A DNA stretch of 64,000 nt from Eledone cirrhosa (Eukaryota), in NCBI GenBank assembly GCA_964016885.1, contig OZ024742.1, positions 143,158,001 through 143,222,000 of the forward strand, written 5' to 3'. Position 1 is the first letter of the stretch. Each line of letters starts with the position of its first letter. A program made the translations under genes and the position numbers. This document shows, in pieces, positions 2,334-46,130 of this stretch. A model generated the notes under the pieces. That model did not search any database, was not told the origin of the DNA, and saw nothing but the letters and a program-made list of their open reading frames with translations.

Positions 2334-2336
<3 letters not shown>

Positions 2337-2366
2337 AGAAAGGGATTTCGCTTCAAGCATAGCTTT

Positions 2367-2463
<97 letters not shown>

Positions 2464-2708
2464 AATGTATATATAGAATATTTTGCAATTATGCTTAATT
2501 AAAAACACTTTGAAGACCTTGCGTTATTATTTTAAAGTAGTGACTATGTAACTTACTTCTTTTTTCAACAAACAAAGGGAGATAAGCTGACAGATCTGTT
2601 TCATACTGTTGGTAATCATCAGAGCTTAGCACTCACCGATGTCGGTTGAACATTATAGATGTTGGATTCTTATAGAATTCCAGTAATAATCAGGAACTGA
2701 TTATACAG
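2334..2708 (-). mobile_element. Diverged single monomer related to the 310-bp retrozyme-like unit, with an internal (TA)n expansion
   Basis: Shares blocks in the same order with the 310-bp unit (ATAGC..TATAT-GTGAAT..TAGAATATT, TTTGAAGACCT, AAGGGA, hammerhead, TTATAGAAT, CAGGAACTG). Confidence 0.65.
2583..2628 (-). ncRNA. Type I hammerhead ribozyme
   Basis: Reverse complement TAAGCT-CTGATGA-T TAC CAACA GTA T-GAAA-CAGATCTG-TC-AGCTTA: perfect 6-bp helix I, palindromic helix III (ACAGATCTGT), GUC cleavage triplet. Confidence 0.85.
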
Positions 2709-2716
2709 ATATATAT

Positions 2717-2802
<86 letters not shown>

Positions 2803-2825
2803 GTATAATCAGTTCCTGATATATA

Positions 2826-2975
2826 TCTTGTATTCGTCTTATTCGGGAAACCTCTGGTAATGAGGTAATTATATTGTATTGTTTATTATACATTAAATTT
2901 AGCTCTGGTACTTACATAGAGCACTCTTCACTCCTATGACTTTTTCAATTTTCAATGGAAACTTCAATACTTATA
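2826..2975 (+). repeat. 5' pseudo-LTR (truncated) of the Penelope-like element
   Basis: Near-identical to 6548-6698 (about two differences seen). Confidence 0.9.
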
Positions 2976-3107
2976 CAGCTCCCAAGGGAATGATCGTTGC
3001 ATATTCTACATTTTTATGAGATTGGCACCTTTCAGCCCTTTTAAAGTCGAACACTCTTCAGTCAAAAGGATTCCTAACCAATACTGAACATGGATAGACA
3101 TCATTTG

Positions 3108-5228
3108 GATTACTCCATCAAGAATATCCCAACACCTTCTAACACTTCCTACACTAAAATGTTGATAGACAAAGTAGAGAAAAGAATGTGTTAAAAGAAT
3201 GAGATGGAAAGCTTTGATTTTCGATGGACACTTTAACACGGACTCTACAGAATATTTTGATATCAAGTCTCATAAATACCCGCAAAGAGTAAAATATATG
3301 ACCGCTTTTGAACTAGACTTAGTTAATTTAATCCACCAAATCAAATTCCGTAAGTACTCTAACCCTTTTCAATCTAAACTATCTATCGATATTTCAATAT
3401 TAAAATCTTCTAAAAATAAGTTCATTTTCTCTGACAAAACTAAAAACGTATACGAAGTTAATAATAACTTACATGACCAACTCTTAACAGATAACATCAC
3501 CTCTAAATACCAAATAGCTAATATAAGCACCTATAATACTATAAATAAGGAAGCTAAAGAATTAGCTAGTTTTTTAAAAATAGACAATAGAACAGAAAAA
3601 CTTGCTAAACGTAATGCCTATATCACCCTCAAAGATCACAAACCTGATTTTATTAATCGTCCTAGTTGTAGATTAATCAACCCTGCTAAGACTGAAATCG
3701 GTCTTGCTAGCAAAAAAATATTAAATAATATAAACAAACATATTAGAAGTAAGTCTGAATTACTCCAATGGATAAATAGCTCTTCTGTAGTACATTGGTT
3801 TAATAATATTAAAGATAAAAATAGTTCTAGATTACGCAATTTGACATTGTAGACTTCTACCCATCTATTACTCACCCTCTTTTAACGAAAGCCTTACATT
3901 TCGCTAGAAAGTTTATCAATATTTCTGATATTGAAGAGAATGTCATTTTGCATGCTAGAAACACTTTACTTTTTACTAATAATGACACTTGGGTAAAAAT
4001 ATCTAACCCAGAGAACCCATTAGAAGTCTCAATGGGTTCTTTTGACAGTGCTGACGTATGTGATTTAGTCGGCCTATTCCTCCTACACACACTTAAAGAG
4101 AAACTCCTTAACCATACCTTTGGGCTTTATCGCGACGATGGTCTAATACTTTCCCATACCACCATAGGCCATAACTTAAATAGATTAAGAAAAGACTTAA
4201 TAAAAACCTTCGCTAGTTTAATCTTAAAATTACCATTGACACTAACCTTTCCAATCTTAATTTTCTAGATATAAACCTAGATCTGCCTACTGCTTCTTAT
4301 AAACCATACCATAAACCTAATGAAAATTTAAAATATATAAATAAAGGCTCTTGCTATCCTCCTATAGTTTTTAAAAATCTTATCCCTAATATTAGCAGTA
4401 GGATCTCCACCCTCTCTTCCTCAGAAGCTATTTTCAATAAGGCATCCTCCTACTATAATAAAGCCCTTCAAAATAGCGGATTTAGCGAACCGATTAAGTA
4501 TATACCCAACAATACTAACTCCTCTAAACATAATAATAGGAAAAGAAAAATAATCTGGTTCATCCCCCTACTCTTTAGCAGTTAAAACTAATGTAGGCAA
4601 AAAATTCCGAGAGCTCTTAGATAAACATTTCCCTAGAACACAAAGATACTATAAGATCTTTAATAGAAACTGTGTCAAAATCAGCTACTCCTGCGGTCCT
4701 CCTATTAAATCTTATATCCTCAATAAGAAAATACCCAGAGAACATCAAAATTGCTCCTGTAGAGTCAAAAGTGAATGCCCATTACAAGGTAAATGCAACA
4801 GCAAAGCCATTGTATATGCGGCTAAAGTGACAACCACCAGCAACAATCTACCAGCCACCAGCGAACGATATGTGGGTATGACACAAGACAAATTCAAAAC
4901 GCGTTATTACTCACATGTCGCATCTTTCCGACAGCCTAAAAAAAGATTTACAACAGCTCTGGCTAGCAGAATATGGCATTTGAAAGACCAAGGTATCCAA
5001 TATAAATTAGATTGGTCAATTTTGAACCAATCTAAAGAATATGTAAGAGGAACAAGAAGATGCGCACTCTGCATAAGTGAAAAATATTGGATTTTACAGA
5101 ATCTTAAATCACCAAAAACCTGCCTAAATGCAAAAACAGAAATTTTCACCAGTTGCCCACACATGAAATCACACTTGCTTTCTAGCTCATATAAAATTAA
5201 CTCACTTTCAGATACTTATCCTCCATAA
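3108..5228 (+). pseudogene. Frameshifted Penelope-like reverse transcriptase / GIY-YIG endonuclease
   Basis: Motifs across frames: YSIKNIP, KRMRWKA, TLKDHK..CRLINPAK, QFDIVDFYPSI, MGSFDSADVCDLVG, GLYRDDGL, FLDINLDL, KIIWFIPP, CSCRVKSECPLQGKC linker, IVY..YVGMT..RYYSH, CALCISEK..LN..E...CPH. Confidence 0.9.
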
Positions 5229-11313: not shown

Positions 11314-14300
11314 ATGGCTAGTTTACGAGTTGGAAGCGTGAATGTGCGGGGCCTAGGGATGCCCTGGAAACAGGGCCAACTTTTAAACGACCTTAGGTCA
11401 CACGGTATGGATGTGATAGCCATCACCGAGTCCAGGATCCACAGCAGGCAGCAACTAACCCCCATCTTCGACGACTTTGAGATCTACGCATCTCTCTGTC
11501 AGCCAGGAGGTGGAGGGGGAGTGGCTGTCATGTTTCGGAAGAACCTGGACCTCGAAGTACAGCAAGTACACTTGGACCCGGAGGGTAGACTGGTAGTTCT
11601 AGACGTGAACAGTATTGGAAGTGGAGCCTTCAGACTGGTGGCCGTTTATGCCCCGACCGGGTAATCGCAATCACGGCCAGACTTCTTTAAGTGTCTAGAG
11701 TCTTTTCTGGGAACGTCTCGCTCCTACTCTTAGTGGGGGACTGGAATGGTATCCTAGATGCACGATGGGACTATGTGGGAGCATGTCCCAGTAGAGGGGG
11801 GTGCAACAGCCTCAAAATTTTAATCGGCCAATTCAAACTGGCCGATAGGTATCGACTGGATTTCCCGACTGCACCACAGTGGACGTGGGCAAACCGCAGC
11901 GGGATATCTAGAACGTATTTAGATAGGTTCTTCATTAGAGAAAGGGACAAGGAGATGTTAAGCTGTCCACGAATGCACATGGTTGCCTATTCAGGTCACA
12001 AATTAGTCGTCTGCATAGTCAACCGTGACAAAACACATAGACAGGGACCCGGATACTGGAAGCTGAACGTGTCGTTGCCGGCACGTAAAGCTTACAGTGA
12101 ACGGATAAGTAGACTAGTCAAGCAACAGTTAACGGGAGCCATCGTGAACAATAGATGGTGGTACTCTCTCAAGAAAGCAATTAGAGTAGAATCAATAGGG
12201 TTTAGCAGAGAGTTAGCCTTAGAGAAAAACAAAATAGAAAGAGAACTAGTAGCCAAGGTAGAGGAGGCGCCTAGAAGTGGCAACGCGGCTAGAGTGTTAG
12301 CGTCGAGAACGGCACTGGACCAGTTCTTCGATGCGAAACACGAAGGCTGCGTGGTCAGAAGCGAAACACGTGCTCTAGGAAACGAAGGAGCGAAAGCTGT
12401 CAGCTGGGCCCGAGTGGCGGAGGCAAAAAGTGGCAACAAGTCCACGATTCGGTCTTTGAAAGACCAAAACGGACGCGTGCTACTTGACCCCAAGCAAATG
12501 TGCGCGGCCTTTCAGCAGCACTTTGCGCGACTGTTTGAGCAGAACGACGGTGAGCCGAACGGGGCAATGGACTTTAGTTCATACCTGGACGGCCTGCGCG
12601 TCTCTCGAACACGGACGCCGAGTTCTGCGAAAGACCGATCACGGACACTGAAATACGGGACGCTCTGGGCCGCAAGTCACCCGGTCTAGATGGTCTACCC
12701 TATGAGTTTTACATAGGCATGCCGGACTTGTTCTCTGGCGTCACCGAAGCCGTCTACTGCAATTGGCAGCAGAACGGGAGAATTCCCAGTTCTGCAGGCA
12801 AGGGCGTAGTAACGCTTATCAGGAAAGACGAGAACACGGGGGACGAAATTAACAACTTCAGGCCCATAACTTTGCTCAACACAGAGTTATAGATTTTGGC
12901 CAAGGTGCTAGCGACGAGGTTGGCGCTTGTCGTTGGGAACCTGGTAGGGAAAGCGCAAACGTGTGCAATCCCGACCAGGTCCATACACGACAACCTCCAC
13001 CTCATGAGATACATCATAGAGAGGGTGGGTAGTAAACCCGGCTTCGGTGGGGCTCTGATAAATTTAGATCAGTCTAAGGCATTCGATAGGGTCGACCATC
13101 GATACTTGGAAGCGGTTCTCAAGGCGGCCTGTTTCGGTCTCGTTTTCAGAGGCTGGATCGAGGCGATGCACACCAGCATCTGCTCGAGGGTCAAGGTGAA
13201 CAGCTACCTATCGGAGCCGTTCGCAATCACGCGTTCCATTCGACAGGGGTGCCCTCTCTCTTCCATCCTGTATGTATTGACTCTAGAACTACTACTGCGG
13301 AAATTGGAGCTGCTGCAGGGCATCCCTCTAGAACCGGGACTGCGCAAAGCGGCGTCGGCTTATGCCGATGACGTGACAGTAATGGTATCGAGCACCTCGG
13401 AAATCGGGGTGATCGGCAACTTACTGAAAGAATACGAAACGCTGACGGGAGCAAAACTAAACCCGGACAAGTCTGTCGGTTTGCAACTCCGTATGTGGAG
13501 AGGCAAACCGATGACGGCCGACAGCATCGTTGGACGCTGGACGGACGGGCCGGTGAAATTGCTCGGGGTTTGGTTCGGTCCAGACCTCCAGTTGGAGAAA
13601 AACTGGAACGAGGTCACGGCGAAAGTATTTGCGCTCACCCAGAAGTGGCCAGAGTGCAAACTATCCTTGAAAAGTCGAGCGGAGGTGGCGAACACTTTTA
13701 TAGCGTCCGCCATCTACTACCGCTTGACCGTCGTGCCTTGTCCAGCCAAAACGCTTGCCAAAATGGAGCGCGCGCTCTTCCAATTCCTTTGGAAGAGGCG
13801 GGCTTCCTTGGTGAGAAGATCCATCTGCTGCCAACACCCTTCCAACGTAAGGCTGGGGATGCCGTGGCTGACGATGCGCAAACACGCGCTCAGGCTGCGG
13901 CATCTCTACGTATTCCTCACCGGACAACCGGTGTGGGCCTCGTTCGTGAGGCCAGCCTTCCCACGACTCGTCTCGCTGACCGAGCTGCAGTCCTGGGTCA
14001 AGCAAAGACCGAGGAAAATGGGTGACTGGCACATCGAATGTGCTCAGGCGCTCACAGCCCTCTGGCAGGCGGAACCGGCGATCAGTGGAGACTCCACTTC
14101 GTCATTCTATAGAGGGTTGATCAGCAGCAAGTGCGACGACGCGCTCGGTGAAACTCTAGGCGTAGAGGAAGATGAACTGGCCAGTCTGTTCAGTAGGACC
14201 TTCCGCTCGGGACCGATGGACAACTTCCAAAAGTCCCTGGCCTGGCAGTGCTACTGAGGAGCTCTACCAGTTCGAGACAAGCTCTACAGACATGGGCACC

Positions 14301-14743
14301 CGGGCAGGGACCCTGCAAAAAAGATCTGTCCGAGGTGCGTGCGAGACGAAGAAACCGTCGCGCACGCATTCATACACTGCCCGGGCTTCACCGACTTGTG
14401 GGGCTATGTAGAACGACTATTGTCGCGGGTGGGACCAATCCGGTTGACCACCGAGTCCATTGTCATGATCAAACCTCCACCCTCCTTCAAAAACGAAGGA
14501 GAGGCGGTTTCCCTTTGTGTGATAGCTATGGCGAAAGAGGTTGTATGGTGGACAAAGTTGAAAGAGCTGAGGTCAGACACCTTTCTCTCCGGCCAACAAC
14601 TGATTCTTTTTTTCAAATACCACTTTGGAAGAAGAATCAGGATGGAGAGAGAGGTGCTGTACCCCAGCAAGTTTTATGAAAGGTGGGTGAAAGTGGCGAG
14701 AATGGCCCGAGTGAATGGGCCTTCTCTCTATATCAGCCTGTAG
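11314..14743 (+). pseudogene. LINE ORF2 (AP endonuclease + reverse transcriptase + C-terminal zinc finger) with stops and frameshifts
   Basis: SVNVRGL, AITES, AVYAP, VGDWN, TYLDRF, GPGYWKLN, KSPGLDGLPYEFY, FRPITLLN, DQSKAFDRV, RQGCPLS, AYADD, LLGVWF, CPRC..ETVAHAFIHC. Confidence 0.93.
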
Positions 14744-36514: not shown

Positions 36515-36551
<37 letters not shown>

Positions 36552-36704
36552 ATAAATGCTCTGAAATAGCGATATATATGTGAATATAGACATAGAATAT
36601 TCGAAAATATTCTGTATGTTTATAATAAACATTTTGAAGACCTAATCGCTATAGAATAGAATACGTCACGTATTACAATTAGATTCTCGATAAAAGCAAG
36701 GGAA

Positions 36705-36747
36705 GTAATCTACGCGTTTCATTCTCGTTAGAAATCATCAGGACTAC
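36705..36747 (-). ncRNA. Minimal type I hammerhead ribozyme (first of 10 minus-strand copies, +310 bp each, last ends 39537)
   Basis: Reverse complement GTAGTC-CTGATGA-T TTCT AACG AGAA T-GAAA-CGCG-TA-GATTAC. Confidence 0.88.
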
Positions 36748-39700
36748 ATATCCAGTGCTTTTATCGAGAATGACACAGCTAGAGACTTATAGAATACTTA
36801 GCTGTGTACAGGAACTGGTTTGAAAGAGCGGTTGCCGGTCCGGCAGAAATTAGAAATTGGAATAAATGCTCTGAAATAGCGATATATATGTGAATATAGA
36901 CATAGAATATTCGAAAATATTCTGTATGTTTATAATAAACATTTTGAAGACCTAATCGCTATAGAATAGAATACGTCACGTATTACAATTAGATTCTCGA
37001 TAAAAGCAAGGGAAGTAATCTACGCGTTTCATTCTCGTTAGAAATCATCAGGACTACATATCCAGTGCTTTTATCGAGAATGACACAGCTAGAGACTTAT
37101 AGAATACTTAGCTGTGTACAGGAACTGGTTTGAAAGAGCGGTTGCCGGTCCGGCAGAAATTAGAAATTGGAATAAATGCTCTGAAATAGCGATATATATG
37201 TGAATATAGACATAGAATATTCGAAAATATTCTGTATGTTTATAATAAACATTTTGAAGACCTAATCGCTATAGAATAGAATACGTCACGTATTACAATT
37301 AGATTCTCGATAAAAGCAAGGGAAGTAATCTACGCGTTTCATTCTCGTTAGAAATCATCAGGACTACATATCCAGTGCTTTTATCGAGAATGACACAGCT
37401 AGAGACTTATAGAATACTTAGCTGTGTACAGGAACTGGTTTGAAAGAGCGGTTGCCGGTCCGGCAGAAATTAGAAATTGGAATAAATGCTCTGAAATAGC
37501 GATATATATGTGAATATAGACATAGAATATTCGAAAATATTCTGTATGTTTATAATAAACATTTTGAAGACCTAATCGCTATAGAATAGAATACGTCACG
37601 TATTACAATTAGATTCTCGATAAAAGCAAGGGAAGTAATCTACGCGTTTCATTCTCGTTAGAAATCATCAGGACTACATATCCAGTGCTTTTATCGAGAA
37701 TGACACAGCTAGAGACTTATAGAATACTTAGCTGTGTACAGGAACTGGTTTGAAAGAGCGGTTGCCGGTCCGGCAGAAATTAGAAATTGGAATAAATGCT
37801 CTGAAATAGCGATATATATGTGAATATAGACATAGAATATTCGAAAATATTCTGTATGTTTATAATAAACATTTTGAAGACCTAATCGCTATAGAATAGA
37901 ATACGTCACGTATTACAATTAGATTCTCGATAAAAGCAAGGGAAGTAATCTACGCGTTTCATTCTCGTTAGAAATCATCAGGACTACATATCCAGTGCTT
38001 TTATCGAGAATGACACAGCTAGAGACTTATAGAATACTTAGCTGTGTACAGGAACTGGTTTGAAAGAGCGGTTGCCGGTCCGGCAGAAATTAGAAATTGG
38101 AATAAATGCTCTGAAATAGCGATATATATGTGAATATAGACATAGAATATTCGAAAATATTCTGTATGTTTATAATAAACATTTTGAAGACCTAATCGCT
38201 ATAGAATAGAATACGTCACGTATTACAATTAGATTCTCGATAAAAGCAAGGGAAGTAATCTACGCGTTTCATTCTCGTTAGAAATCATCAGGACTACATA
38301 TCCAGTGCTTTTATCGAGAATGACACAGCTAGAGACTTATAGAATACTTAGCTGTGTACAGGAACTGGTTTGAAAGAGCGGTTGCCGGTCCGGCAGAAAT
38401 TAGAAATTGGAATAAATGCTCTGAAATAGCGATATATATGTGAATATAGACATAGAATATTCGAAAATATTCTGTATGTTTATAATAAACATTTTGAAGA
38501 CCTAATCGCTATAGAATAGAATACGTCACGTATTACAATTAGATTCTCGATAAAAGCAAGGGAAGTAATCTACGCGTTTCATTCTCGTTAGAAATCATCA
38601 GGACTACATATCCAGTGCTTTTATCGAGAATGACACAGCTAGAGACTTATAGAATACTTAGCTGTGTACAGGAACTGGTTTGAAAGAGCGGTTGCCGGTC
38701 CGGCAGAAATTAGAAATTGGAATAAATGCTCTGAAATAGCGATATATATGTGAATATAGACATAGAATATTCGAAAATATTCTGTATGTTTATAATAAAC
38801 ATTTTGAAGACCTAATCGCTATAGAATAGAATACGTCACGTATTACAATTAGATTCTCGATAAAAGCAAGGGAAGTAATCTACGCGTTTCATTCTCGTTA
38901 GAAATCATCAGGACTACATATCCAGTGCTTTTATCGAGAATGACACAGCTAGAGACTTATAGAATACTTAGCTGTGTACAGGAACTGGTTTGAAAGAGCG
39001 GTTGCCGGTCCGGCAGAAATTAGAAATTGGAATAAATGCTCTGAAATAGCGATATATATGTGAATATAGACATAGAATATTCGAAAATATTCTGTATGTT
39101 TATAATAAACATTTTGAAGACCTAATCGCTATAGAATAGAATACGTCACGTATTACAATTAGATTCCCGATAAAAGCAAGGGAAGTAATCTACGCGTTTC
39201 ATTCTCGTTAGAAATCATCAGGACTACATATCCAGTGCTTTTATCGAGAATGACACAGCTAGAGACTTATAGAATACTTAGCTGTGTACAGGAACTGGTT
39301 TGAAAGAGCGGTTGCCGGTCCGGCAGAAATTAGAAATTGGAATAAATGCTCTGAAATAGCGATATATATGTGAATATAGACATAGAATATTCGAAAATAT
39401 TCTGTATGTTTATAATAAACATTTTGAAGACCTAATCGCTATAGAATAGAATACGTCACGTATTACAATTAGATTCTCGATAAAAGCAAGGGAAGTAATC
39501 TACGCGTTTCATTCTCGTTAGAAATCATCAGGACTACATATCCAGTGCTTTTATCGAGAATGACACAGCTAGAGACTTATAGAATACTTAGCTGTGTACA
39601 GGAACTGGTTTGAAAGAGCGGTTGCCGGTCCGGCAGAAATTAGAAATTGGAATAAATGCTCTGAAATAGCGATATATATGTGAATATAGACATAGAATAT

Positions 39701-39996
39701 TCGAAAATATTCTGTATGTTTATAATAAACATTTTGAAGACCTAATCGCTATAGAATAGAATACGTCACGTATTCTATTCTATAGCGATTAGGTCTTCAA
39801 AATGTTTATTATAAACATACAGAATATTTTCGAATATTCTATGTCTATATTCACATATATATCGCTATTTCAGAGCATTTATTCCAATTTCTAATTTCTG
39901 CCGGACCGGCAACCGCTCTTTCAAACCAGTTCCTGTACACAGCTAAGTATTCTATAAGTCTCTAGCTGTGTCATTCTCGATAAAAGCACTGGATAT

Positions 39997-40039
39997 GTAG
40001 TCCTGATGATTTCTAACGAGAATGAAACGCGTAGATTAC
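39997..40039 (+). ncRNA. Minimal type I hammerhead ribozyme (first of 6 plus-strand copies, +310 bp each); predicted cleavage after 40033
   Basis: Helix I GTAGTC/GATTAC, core CTGATGA and GAAA, helix II TTCT-AACG-AGAA, palindromic ACGCGT helix III, GUA triplet; enclosed by 16-bp stem 39973-39988/40046-40061. Confidence 0.88.
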
Positions 40040-41707
40040 TTCCCTTGCTTTTATCGAGAATCTAATTGTAATACGTGACGTATTCTATTCTATAGCGATT
40101 AGGTCTTCAAAATGTTTATTATAAACATACAGAATATTTTCGAATATTCTATGTCTATATTCACATATATATCGCTATTTCAGAGCATTTATTCCAATTT
40201 CTAATTTCTGCCGGACCGGCAACCGCTCTTTCAAACCAGTTCCTGTACACAGCTAAGTATTCTATAAGTCTCTAGCTGTGTCATTCTCGATAAAAGCACT
40301 GGATATGTAGTCCTGATGATTTCTAACGAGAATGAAACGCGTAGATTACTTCCCTTGCTTTTATCGAGAATCTAATTGTAATACGTGACGTATTCTATTC
40401 TATAGCGATTAGGTCTTCAAAATGTTTATTATAAACATACAGAATATTTTCGAATATTCTATGTCTATATTCACATATATATCGCTATTTCAGAGCATTT
40501 ATTCCAATTTCTAATTTCTGCCGGACCGGCAACCGCTCTTTCAAACCAGTTCCTGTACACAGCTAAGTATTCTATAAGTCTCTAGCTGTGTCATTCTCGA
40601 TAAAAGCACTGGATATGTAGTCCTGATGATTTCTAACGAGAATGAAACGCGTAGATTACTTCCCTTGCTTTTATCGAGAATCTAATTGTAATACGTGACG
40701 TATTCTATTCTATAGCGATTAGGTCTTCAAAATGTTTATTATAAACATACAGAATATTTTCGAATATTCTATGTCTATATTCACATATATATCGCTATTT
40801 CAGAGCATTTATTCCAATTTCTAATTTCTGCCGGACCGGCAACCGCTCTTTCAAACCAGTTCCTGTACACAGCTAAGTATTCTATAAGTCTCTAGCTGTG
40901 TCATTCTCGATAAAAGCACTGGATATGTAGTCCTGATGATTTCTAACGAGAATGAAACGCGTAGATTACTTCCCTTGCTTTTATCGAGAATCTAATTGTA
41001 ATACGTGACGTATTCTATTCTATAGCGATTAGGTCTTCAAAATGTTTATTATAAACATACAGAATATTTTCGAATATTCTATGTCTATATTCACATATAT
41101 ATCGCTATTTCAGAGCATTTATTCCAATTTCTAATTTCTGCCGGACCGGCAACCGCTCTTTCAAACCAGTTCCTGTACACAGCTAAGTATTCTATAAGTC
41201 TCTAGCTGTGTCATTCTCGATAAAAGCACTGGATATGTAGTCCTGATGATTTCTAACGAGAATGAAACGCGTAGATTACTTCCCTTGCTTTTATCGAGAA
41301 TCTAATTGTAATACGTGACGTATTCTATTCTATAGCGATTAGGTCTTCAAAATGTTTATTATAAACATACAGAATATTTTCGAATATTCTATGTCTATAT
41401 TCACATATATATCGCTATTTCAGAGCATTTATTCCAATTTCTAATTTCTGCCGGACCGGCAACCGCTCTTTCAAACCAGTTCCTGTACACAGCTAAGTAT
41501 TCTATAAGTCTCTAGCTGTGTCATTCTCGATAAAAGCACTGGATATGTAGTCCTGATGATTTCTAACGAGAATGAAACGCGTAGATTACTTCCCTTGCTT
41601 TTATCGAGAATCTAATTGTAATACGTGACGTATTCTATTCTATAGCGATTAGGTCTTCAAAATGTTTATTATAAACATACAGAATATTTTCGAATATTCT
41701 ATGTCTA

Positions 41708-41758
<51 letters not shown>

Positions 41759-43969: not shown

Positions 43970-46130
43970 AATGATTTCTACTTTAGGCACAAGGCCAGCA
44001 ATTTTTTTTGGGGGGGGGGGGGGGGGCAGGAGAGAGTCGTTTAAATCGACCCCAGTGCATTACTGGTGCTTTATTTTATCGACCCCGTAAGGATAAATGG
44101 CAAACCTAACCTCGGCGGGATTTGAACTCAGAACGTAAAGGGCCATAACTCGATACTGCACAGCATGGCATCTGTCGCTCTCCCGATACTGCCAATACAC
44201 CGCCCTCCAATCCACCGACAACTATAACAATATGTTTCTACTTTTGGCACAAGGCCAGCAATTACCCCAGTGTATTACTGGTACTTTATTTTATCAACTC
44301 CCGTAAGGATGAAAGGTAAAGTTGACCTCGGCGGGATTTGAACACAAACCGTAAAAGGATCATAACCCTATGTTGCACAGCATGGCGTCTGGCGCTCTAC
44401 CGATACTACCAATACAACTACAATAATAATAACACTACCACCACCACTACCACCACCACTACCACCGCCAACAACAACATCACCACCACCACCACCACCA
44501 CTACCACCACCACCACCACCACTACCACCACCAATAACAACAACATCACCACCACCACCACCAATACCACTACCACCACCAACAACAACATCACCCCCAC
44601 CACCATTACCACCACCACCACAACCACCACTACCACCACCAATAACAACAACATCACCACCACCACCACCAATACCACTACCACCACCAACAACAACAAC
44701 ATCACCACCACCACCAATACCACCACCACCCACACCACTACAACCACCACCACCACTACCAATACCACTACCACCACCAACAACAACATCACCACCACCA
44801 CCACCACCAATACCACCACCACCACCACCCACACCACTACCACCACCAGCACCACCAACACCACTACCACTACCAACAACAACATCACCACCACCACCAA
44901 TACCACCACCACCACTACCACCACCAATACCACCACCACCACCACCAATACCACCAATATTACTAGTATTTATTTCATCATGCCCAGAGGGATGTAAGAG
45001 AAAACACGACTCCGAAAGAATTCGAACTCAATACGTGGTAAAAAGCAAAATACAACTTATTGCCATATTTATTGCATTTATTAATTTAGAAACTTTTGAA
45101 CAGAAGTGTAGGCGGTGCCTTCAGACAAAGCAGAGTGACCGGTCTTCTTCAGACGTCTAAAATAATTGATTGTTTCTACTTTAGGCACAAGGCCAGCAAT
45201 TACCCAGTGCATTACTGGTACTTTATTTTATCGACCCTGTAAGGATGAAAGGCAAAGTTAACCTCGGCGGGATTTGAACTCAGATCGTAAAGGGACGTAA
45301 CTATGCTGGAAAGCATGGCGTCCGACCCTCCACCGATACTGCCAATCCACCGAAAATAATGAATGAGAAATGACAGTATCGGTAGAAGGTCGGACGCCAT
45401 GCTTTGCAGCCTAGAGTTACGCCCCTTTATAGTCTGAGTTCAAATCCTGCCGGGGTTCACTTTGCCTTTCATCCTTACGGGGTCGATAAAATAAAGTACC
45501 AGTCACGCACTGGGGATTGATTTAATCGACTTTCCCCTTGTCCCAAAATTACTGGCCTTGTGCCGAAATCAGAAACCATTACCATCGACCTTACGGGGTC
45601 GATAAAATAAAGTACCAGTAATACACTGGATAATTGCTGGCCTTGTGCCTAAAGTAGAAACAATTAATATTATTATTATCATTATTATTATTACCATTAT
45701 TATTATTCTCATTATTATATTAGGGTGGATTGGCAGTATCGGTAGAGAGTCGGACGCCATGCTTTCCAGCATAGTTACGTCCCTTTACGGTCTGAGTTCA
45801 AATTCCGCCGAGGTTAACTTTGCCTTTCATCCTTACAGGGTCGATAAAATAAAGTACCAGTAATGCACTAGGATAATTGCTGGCCTTGTGCCAAAAGTAG
45901 AAACAATTATTATCATTATTATCATATGGCGGTGGATTGGCAGTATCGGTAGAGGGCCGGACGCCACGCTTTGAGGCATAGAGTTACGGCCCTTGCTATT
46001 CTGAGTTCGAATCCCGCCGAGATTAACTTTGCCTTTTATCCTTACGGGGGTCGATAAAATAAAGTACCAGTAATGCACTGGGATAATTGCTGGCCTTGTG
46101 CCAAAAATAGAGACAATTATTATCATTATC
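43970..46130. mobile_element. Cluster of at least seven full or partial tRNA-derived SINEs in both orientations
   Basis: Recurring GAGTTCAAATCCCGCCGAGGT.AACTTTGCCTTTCATCCTTACGGGGTCGATAAAATAAAGTACCAGT. Further copies at ~32580-32860, 34200-34430, 47145-47360, 49205-49372, 50400-50530, 55400-55610. Confidence 0.85.
44410..44960. repeat. (ACC/AAC/ACT)n trinucleotide repeat
   Basis: Directly visible. Confidence 0.95.

What the first reader, a model, noticed from the sequence alone, without database searches (positions are those of the whole stretch)
2334..2708. Diverged sister monomer of the array whose hammerhead shows compensatory changes
Seen: the same block order as the 310-bp unit, and a hammerhead with different stem sequences but the same architecture: helix I TAAGCT/AGCTTA vs GTAGTC/GATTAC; extension GAG-TGC/T-CTC vs GGA-TAT/T-TCC (same 3/1 internal loop); palindromic helix III ACAGATCTGT vs ACGCGT; the same unusual T..T apposition at the base of helix II. 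Inference: structure conserved while sequence diverged implies selection on the ribozyme and an old, diversified family. The T..T replaces the usual purine-pyrimidine 10.1-11.1 pair and may be a family-specific core variant.
Basis: partly seen in the sequence, partly recalled or inferred. Interest (0 to 1): 0.75.

Follow-up and report, generated by a model that had tools for sequence, protein, structure and literature searches.

The report
Truncated retrozyme copy, covarying hammerhead lineage
This is one cut-short copy of a roughly 317-base repeat found thousands of times in this animal genome, whose predicted self-cutting RNA keeps its fold while stems and even core base pairs swap between subfamilies, which likely records past selection for cutting in an already known kind of jumping element.

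Summary
A type I hammerhead lies on the minus strand at 2579-2634. Kinship with the 310-bp array is significant outside the ribozyme (0 of 1000 shuffles). The copy spans only about 2453-2708; 2334-2452 is unrelated DNA and (AT)n. It is 96% identical to its own 317-nt subfamily, one of 12 sister subfamilies I defined (over 6,000 ribozyme motifs in the genome). Selection on the lineage is well supported: 20 of 27 pairs covary, nine core bases never change, and the tertiary C3-G8 pair switched to U3-A8 (6,345 of 6,468 motifs Watson-Crick). This copy is likely a dead insertion. U10.1.U11.1 is published (Perreault 2011; axolotl retrozyme) and is not family-specific: sisters carry A-U or G-C. Fixed 3' ends, head-to-head arms and (AT)n targets point to Penelope-type mobilisation. 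One lead is mine: U.U occurs with none of 4,285 U3-A8 cores, which suggests epistasis. The scan has already reported this clade, its U3-A8 branch and the two-armed arrays on other DNA. Verdict: new member of the metazoan non-LTR retrozymes. Cleavage and expression are untested.

The parts
2453..2708 (-). 5'-truncated solo copy of retrozyme subfamily B1 (about 250 of 317 nt); the RNA 3' end merges with (AT)n at about +134 to +142 after the cleavage site
   Evidence: 10 substitutions and one 6-nt deletion in 256 aligned nt vs the B1 consensus; end mapped
2579..2634 (-). canonical type I hammerhead: distal helix 2634-2632/2581-2579, 3/1 internal loop, helix I 2628-2623/2588-2583, core 2622-2616 and 2602-2599, U10.1 2615 facing U11.1 2603, helix II 3 bp, helix III 2599-2590 (palindrome: 3 bp plus tetraloop alone, 10 bp as a dimer), predicted cut 2589/2588
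   Evidence: sequence; covariation; constrained fold
2564..2650 (-). long hairpin that carries the ribozyme (outer 10-bp stem 2650-2641 with 2573-2564)
   Evidence: 7 of 10 outer pairs change on both sides across subfamilies
2377..2452 (.). (AT)n microsatellite, likely the insertion target at the RNA 3' end
   Evidence: 70 of 91 canonical arm ends run into (AT)n
   Evidence: 860 of 1000 shuffles score as high; absent from the subfamily consensus
2801..2820 (+). 20-nt exact inverted copy of the element's 5' end (2689-2708), across an AT/AC microsatellite; likely a fold-back remnant
   Evidence: sequence
2826..5228 (+). neighbouring broken Penelope-like element (RT plus C-terminal endonuclease in four frame pieces) with Hydra-clade motifs; it starts inside its own, unrelated pLTR hammerhead; context, not part of the retrozyme
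   Evidence: ORF pieces; motifs checked against PMC8557442 section 11; many genomic copies; pLTR
36546..41722 (.). sister 310-bp array (subfamily A): two head-to-head arms, ribozymes on the minus strand in the left arm and the plus strand in the right arm; 14 of 15 full units identical

Best explanation
This is a 5'-truncated, single-ribozyme genomic copy of a 317-nt hammerhead repeat subfamily related to the 310-bp array, likely a non-LTR retrozyme pasted into an (AT)n tract by a Penelope-type reverse transcriptase and now decaying without function. Shown: homology, subfamily structure, covariation, fixed 3' ends, head-to-head arms and (AT)n targets. Inferred: multimeric copies are transcribed, the hammerheads cut out unit-length RNAs that are likely circularised, and a Penelope-like RT/endonuclease opens (AT)n and primes on both DNA ends at two fixed internal RNA sites (+142 and +168). 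Only RNAs with a working ribozyme would found new subfamilies, so compensatory changes accumulate between subfamilies while inserted copies decay. With one ribozyme and without the conserved block between the two start sites, this copy could not release a unit-length RNA.
For: Flank homology to the array. Copy number: 4,006 exact matches of a non-ribozyme 20-mer and 6,468 clade ribozyme motifs, controls 0. On a sequence-only alignment of 13 real copies, 20 of 27 pairs change on both sides vs 10.4+-1.9 shuffled (0 of 500), and 90.7% of cells pair vs 31-47% when slid. Across 12 subfamily consensuses, 0 of 9 invariant core columns vary, against 53 of 84 other hairpin columns and 45 of 184 columns elsewhere. 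The tertiary 3-8 pair is U-A in 4,285, C-G in 2,060, C.A in 67 and U.G in 56 motifs. In 66 loci chosen without using the ribozyme, 91 of 117 arms end at +142 or +168, 40 of 47 adjacent arm pairs are head-to-head, and 23 of 24 fully canonical pairs use one end each (p 1e-6). This copy ends at the +142 site. 51 of 117 arms exceed 330 nt. Penelope tails and inverted 5'-truncated copies are described in PMC8557442 (passages); internal initiation and extension of both strands in PMC11167929 (section 3 part 1).
Against: No cleavage or expression data. Rfam models miss the motif. The hammerhead fold of this copy lies 4.3 kcal/mol above its minimum-energy fold. No autonomous element carrying this unit was found: 29 copies of the neighbouring element hold no retrozyme unit beyond a 30-nt piece in one locus. 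The U3-A8 switch is one evolutionary event however many copies carry it. The covariation controls ignore relatedness, and the structure was drawn from this copy. In 79 unbiased segments the core differed less than the rest (2.6% vs 4.3%, p 0.016), which could mean some constraint after insertion, although unresolved subfamilies inflate the second figure. In the Xenopus preprint 8 of 9 predicted retrozyme dimers did not cleave in vitro.
Confidence: 0.85

Rival explanations
1. The unit is the pLTR of an autonomous Penelope-like family that I did not sample, and the copy is an ordinary 5'-truncated insertion of that element.
For: Same ends, inversions and targets as Penelope-like elements. Retrozymes resemble pLTRs in Xenopus (preprint 10.64898/2026.07.22.740005). 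The genome holds very many such elements (67,953 candidates, 150 scored).
Against: Arms run on into further copies of the same unit, up to 1,107 nt, and 5' ends are spread round the whole unit. The neighbouring element has its own unrelated long-helix-II hammerhead. The ribozyme is the canonical type found in retrozymes, not the minimal pLTR type (PMC4209133). Only one Penelope family was checked.
Confidence: 0.08
2. The compensatory changes come from DNA hairpin repair or template switching in a fold-back-prone repeat, with no selection on RNA catalysis.
For: Fold-backs are common in these loci. Hairpin columns change faster than the rest of the unit.
Against: Positions 3 and 8 do not pair in the secondary structure, yet both changed and no other of 10 core columns did on a branch with 33 differences in 278 sites. 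G-U pairs and U.U are kept across subfamilies. Private changes are as frequent in the hairpin as outside (0.47% vs 0.54%).
Confidence: 0.04
3. This particular copy has been kept by the host as a working ribozyme that cuts a minus-strand transcript.
For: None of its 10 substitutions falls in the 56-nt ribozyme.
Against: At 3.9% divergence a clean 56-nt stretch has about an 11% chance, and the copy was noticed because it is intact. 59 of 79 unbiased segments also keep all 11 core sites. No host gene was identified here.
Confidence: 0.03

Closest known systems
Metazoan non-LTR retrozymes, especially axolotl Rtz353 with HHR_Amex2 (Cervera and de la Pena 2020, PMC7229834; sections 14, 15, 17 and passages read)
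   Same: Canonical type I hammerhead in an AT-rich unit of about 300-350 nt, tandem and solo copies, Penelope-like elements in the same genome. Amex2 has the same U.U at the base of helix II with a sturdier helix III; it cleaves 22% in 1 h as a monomer and better as a dimer.
   Different: Unrelated host and unit. Here U.U alternates with A-U and G-C, and a U3-A8 branch arises inside one lineage. Two-armed insertions with fixed ends are not in the parts read (the word 'inverted' occurs 0 times). Expression and cleavage are not shown here.
Natural hammerhead core variants U10.1-U11.1 and U3-A8 (Perreault et al. 2011, PMC3088659, passages; U3-A8 in Schistosoma Penelope-like elements, PMC4209133, parts 1-2 of 4)
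   Same: Both variants are described in nature. U-U is reported as the best tolerated mismatch at 10.1-11.1, and U3-A8 as active in vitro.
   Different: The passages read give them as separate examples, not as ordered steps in one family. I saw no statement that the two exclude each other.
Dolichopoda pDo500 satellite hammerheads (PMC2837043, passages)
   Same: Satellite-borne hammerhead with compensatory changes in stems I and II, including 10.1-11.1, read as constraint.
   Different: There the ribozyme region is more conserved than the rest of the repeat; here the stems change faster than the rest while the core stays fixed.
Penelope-like elements, Hydra clade (PMC8557442, section 11 and passages; PMC11167929, section 3 part 1 and passages)
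   Same: (TA)n targets, inverted 5'-truncated partner, a short tail between two ends, internal initiation.
   Different: The unit encodes no protein, its tail is about 26 nt (30-40 described), and it has no significant sequence match to the neighbouring element.

Membership tests
Metazoan non-LTR retrozyme | type I hammerhead in each unit | tested here: met
Metazoan non-LTR retrozyme | unit of about 150-450 bp, GC below 50% | tested here: met
   units of 310-318 nt; GC about 0.35 in the array and 0.26 around this copy
Metazoan non-LTR retrozyme | tandem copies giving two ribozymes per transcript | tested here: met
   met by the family: 51 of 117 arms exceed 330 nt, six-unit arrays in a young subfamily; not met by this copy, which is a solo fragment
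Metazoan non-LTR retrozyme | non-coding | tested here: met
   no frame of 150 aa or more over the copy; the only such frame touching the array mostly spans the flanking microsatellite
Metazoan non-LTR retrozyme | no LTR, primer-binding site or polypurine tract | not tested
   not searched for explicitly
Metazoan non-LTR retrozyme | self-cleavage in vitro | not testable with these tools
   needs a bench assay
Metazoan non-LTR retrozyme | expressed as linear and circular monomers | not testable with these tools
   no suitable RNA data were reachable (see Tried and rejected)
Metazoan non-LTR retrozyme | autonomous Penelope-like elements in the same genome | tested here: met
Canonical type I hammerhead | conserved core C3-A9, G12-A15.1, U16.1 and an NUH triplet | tested here: met
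   intact, GUC triplet
Canonical type I hammerhead | 6-bp helix I and short palindromic helix III | tested here: met
   6 bp; helix III 10 of 10 paired as a dimer
Canonical type I hammerhead | paired 10.1-11.1 (consensus trait with published exceptions, not strictly defining) | tested here: not met
   U.U here; published as a natural active variant
Canonical type I hammerhead | tertiary contact between loops 1 and 2 | tested here: inconclusive
   the 3/1 loop and a loop-2 AA are kept in most subfamilies; the contact was not modelled
Canonical type I hammerhead | match to an Rfam hammerhead model | tested here: not met
   a detection failure rather than a structural feature
pLTR of an autonomous Penelope-like element | unit joined to an RT/GIY-YIG frame | tested here: inconclusive
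   absent from 29 loci of the neighbouring family; other families not examined
Hydra-clade Penelope-like element (the neighbour at 2826-5228) | RWK, DKT, CxCX5C linker, CxxC and CxH motifs, no CCHH, C-terminal endonuclease | tested here: met
   read by eye in the translations against PMC8557442 section 11; no tree built; Pfam gave no RT or endonuclease hit

The most novel reading that the evidence does not exclude
This lineage is a natural, ordered mutagenesis of the hammerhead core. Starting from U10.1.U11.1 with C3-G8, it reached A-U three times and G-C once, and U3-A8 only after G-C and a longer helix III were in place. U.U and U3-A8 never meet (0 of 4,285). The two weakening changes would then be incompatible, and successful subfamilies would be tuned to cut sub-maximally so that the RNA circle survives to be copied; the subfamily with neither handicap (C3-G8, G-C, 4-bp helix III) stayed small.
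Probability: 0.25. Interest if true: 0.65.

Novelty: new member of a known kind. Interest (0 to 1): 0.36.

Why it matters
The copy itself is ordinary retroelement debris, and both unusual core states in its family are in print. Its value is as a test set. One genome holds a dozen related subfamilies, with thousands of copies, that differ at the two core pairs and in helix III length. That allows a direct test of whether retrozyme success tracks ribozyme speed or favours slower cutting. The source paper leaves open how these circles avoid self-cleavage (PMC7229834 Discussion). The fixed ends add genomic support for Penelope-type mobilisation, which that paper proposes but does not show.

Tried and rejected
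Rfam scans found no hammerhead. A DNA search of the genome with the 310-bp unit returned no candidates and is uninformative. Sequencing runs: no RNA holder listed. Laying two runs gave only contigs; the second organism's run held one 151-nt contig at depth 2, which I do not use. RNA-editing scar: an A>G excess in the hairpin (96 of 1,654 vs T>C 48 of 1,884) came with the opposite bias outside it. It vanished in 116 full-length units (72 of 3,194 vs 61 of 3,123, p 0.43; private changes 3 vs 4, a different set chosen with a ribozyme pattern), so I rejected it as subfamily misassignment. My idea that a weak helix III explains long arrays was rejected because six-unit arrays also occur in a U3-A8 subfamily with a 4-bp helix III. 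A 6-7-nt word shared by the retrozyme tail and the neighbouring element's pLTR is too short to count. The first tree of single copies included trait columns and ragged flanks and was replaced by consensus trees. The 'D13/D14' U.U and A-U groups were partly defined by the trait itself, and mosaic copies could add apparent changes. Two papers on core pair mutants (PMC1986816, PMC2271363) are not held, so rates for U3-A8 and U.U rest on PMC3088659's summary. Literature searches: hammerhead/Penelope-like/retrozyme, octopus plus hammerhead ribozyme (29), 10.1-11.1 terms (33), C3-G8/U3-A8 (58), G8A/C3U (70), cephalopod/Penelope/ribozyme (71). No listing described this family or a U.U versus U3-A8 exclusion; subscription papers and all supplements were unseen, and the supplements of PMC3088659, PMC7229834 and PMC4209133 may hold such variants. 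No covariance model was built; patterns and BLAST against subfamily consensuses served instead.

Full report
Setting. The window lies in a 3.0-Gb animal genome rich in microsatellites. I did not identify the species; earlier scan notes call it a cephalopod, which matches my recall of its repeats but was not tested.

Observation. Homology to the 310-bp unit is real: score 109 vs 32.1+-5.8 (0 of 500 shuffles) overall, and 81 vs 30.8+-5.3 (0 of 1000) without the ribozyme hairpin. The best single block is 2461-2560 (0 of 1000). The piece 2334-2375 is not homologous (860 of 1000), and 2655-2708 alone is not significant (67 of 1000). Rfam misses the motif, and this copy does not fold better than shuffles.

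What it is. A genome search with 2461-2708 gave 2,241 candidates, 40 scored, with the best at 90-93% identity. From these and from pattern hits I built subfamily consensuses. The copy is 96% identical to subfamily B1 (317 nt) and 58% to the array unit A; B1 and A are 63% identical. It carries 10 substitutions and a 6-nt deletion in 256 aligned nt, none inside the 56-nt ribozyme (about 11% expected by chance). It lacks about 60 nt that include the blocks best conserved between A and B. An exact non-ribozyme 20-mer of the clade occurs 4,006 times, control 0. From 130 full-length units out of 267 candidates I defined A plus 12 sister subfamilies; three single units were left out. Median divergence from their own consensus is 1% for A (5 units), 3-5% for most B and E groups (1% for a two-unit group) and 7-9% for D. 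In the window, 14 of 15 full array units are identical, so A is very young and this copy is older.

Selection on the ribozyme. On a sequence-only alignment of 13 real copies, 20 of 27 pairs change on both sides (shuffled 10.4+-1.9, 0 of 500) and 90.7% of cells pair, against 31-47% when partners are slid. These controls ignore relatedness, and the structure came from this copy. Across the 12 consensuses, 0 of 9 invariant core columns vary, while 53 of 84 other hairpin columns and 45 of 184 columns elsewhere do. The strongest sign is tertiary: the largest branch reads U3-A8 instead of C3-G8. Genome-wide in clade context the counts are U-A 4,285, C-G 2,060, C.A 67 and U.G 56, controls 0, so 6,345 of 6,468 are Watson-Crick. 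This is one event (support 100/100), but on that branch only positions 3 and 8 of ten core columns changed, and DNA hairpin repair would not pair them. After insertion, copies decay: 20 of 79 segments chosen without the ribozyme have a damaged core, and private changes are as frequent in the hairpin as outside. Selection therefore likely acts while the element replicates, not on this copy.

The U.U pair. It is not new. PMC3088659 (passages) reports natural U10.1-U11.1 and cites it as the best tolerated mismatch. PMC7229834 (section 15) describes about 60,000 axolotl retrozyme ribozymes with it, cleaving 22% in an hour as monomers and better as dimers. It is not family-specific either. In this clade the first 100 of 1,200 rows are 55 A-U, 37 U.U and 8 G-C (hand count). 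With all ribozyme columns removed, the tree needs three changes for U.U and three for A-U, and one clade is rejected for each (p-AU 2.6e-60 and 1.6e-6). Rooted on A, a long branch and therefore unsure, the order is U.U, then A-U three times, G-C once (88/86, not starred), then U3-A8. A separate family of about 480-500 bp also has U.U without flank homology; the 14-nt U.U pattern matches 23,530 times vs 3 controls. Among U3-A8 motifs, 94 of the first 100 rows have G-C (hand count), and genome-wide only 4 lack G at 10.1 while having U at 11.1, all A-U, none U.U. Helix II changed several times on that branch while 10.1-11.1 stayed G-C. This suggests epistasis, but shared descent from one event explains it equally well.

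How it moves. I examined 66 loci: the first 30 listed places plus 40 further ones from the first 100 rows, all on one contig, with 4 overlapping loci dropped; two look like segmental duplicates. Of 117 arms, 51 end near +142 and 40 near +168 after the cleavage site; 70 of these 91 run into (AT)n; 40 of 47 adjacent pairs are head-to-head; and 23 of 24 pairs with two canonical ends use one each (p 1e-6). This copy ends at the +142 site. The window's array ends at the matching places (+165, and +128 merging with an AT-like stretch). PMC8557442 (passages) describes inverted 5'-truncated partners, 30-40-bp tails and (TA)n targets for Penelope-like elements, and PMC11167929 (section 3 part 1) shows internal initiation and extension of both strands in vitro. 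Arms longer than one unit (51 of 117) need a circular or multimeric template, and my data do not separate the two. The element next door at 2826-5228 is broken, has the Hydra-clade motifs and its own pLTR ribozyme. It is a plausible helper class, not a shown partner.

Predicted activity. Helix III of this copy can form 3 bp alone or 10 bp in a dimer; the array's forms 1 bp alone and likely needs a dimer. The active fold lies 4.3 and 6.7 kcal/mol above the respective minimum. I expect modest cleavage if the copy is transcribed, but a single ribozyme cannot release a monomer.

Comparison and verdict. It works like, and on the features tested is, a metazoan non-LTR retrozyme; cleavage and circular RNA are untested. 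The preprint 10.64898/2026.07.22.740005 (parts 1-3 of 5 read) already notes solo monomers and a Penelope origin. The scan has reported the 310-bp two-armed arrays, the U3-A8 branch of this clade, and a similar series in another genome; these are unchecked notes, not support. Novelty: new member of a known kind. Interest 0.36, resting on the ordered core series and its cheap bench test.

Noticed in passing
window 1698 (+) and 2128 (-): A second hammerhead family with a long helix II, A10.1-U11.1 and an AT-only palindromic helix III; the two copies face each other across a (TA)n tract. Fragments of it recur near several B loci.
   Followed up: partly
window 63457 (+): A decayed copy of the roughly 480-500-bp U.U hammerhead family (clusters with it).
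   Followed up: partly
window 55005 (+) and 19423 (+): Two further hammerhead-like cores; 55005 shares the helix III palindrome of the 480-500-bp family, and 19423 has a weak helix II.
   Followed up: no
window 39026-39335: The only variant among 15 full array units is one change in a single unit, A>G on the ribozyme strand within the long stem. A change in one unit only argues for a later mutation or copying error rather than an edit in a circular template.
   Followed up: no
window 39760-39774: The array's two arms meet at a near-palindrome of the unit itself, so the junction uses built-in microhomology.
   Followed up: no
L198:1007-1610: Tandem array of a 163-nt sub-unit of the retrozyme that lacks the ribozyme (positions +54 to +219), ending at the canonical +168 site: a possible deletion derivative copied as a smaller circle.
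   Followed up: no
window 2689-2820; L054, L002, L009: Short exact fold-backs across (AT)n tracts are common at insertion ends, for retrozymes and Penelope-like elements alike.
   Followed up: no
window 12893-14740 (+): A LINE-type reverse transcriptase (Pfam RVT_1, E 1.2e-18; weak zf-RVT hit).
   Followed up: no
window 45702-46129: Two tandem copies of a 210-bp SINE-like unit; the tRNA-like reading is from recall.
   Followed up: no
subfamilies B1, B3, B4, E: Helix III lengthens by a 2-nt insertion that breaks the palindrome (B3, B4), and the palindrome is restored in E1-E3, suggesting that dimer pairing was regained.
   Followed up: partly
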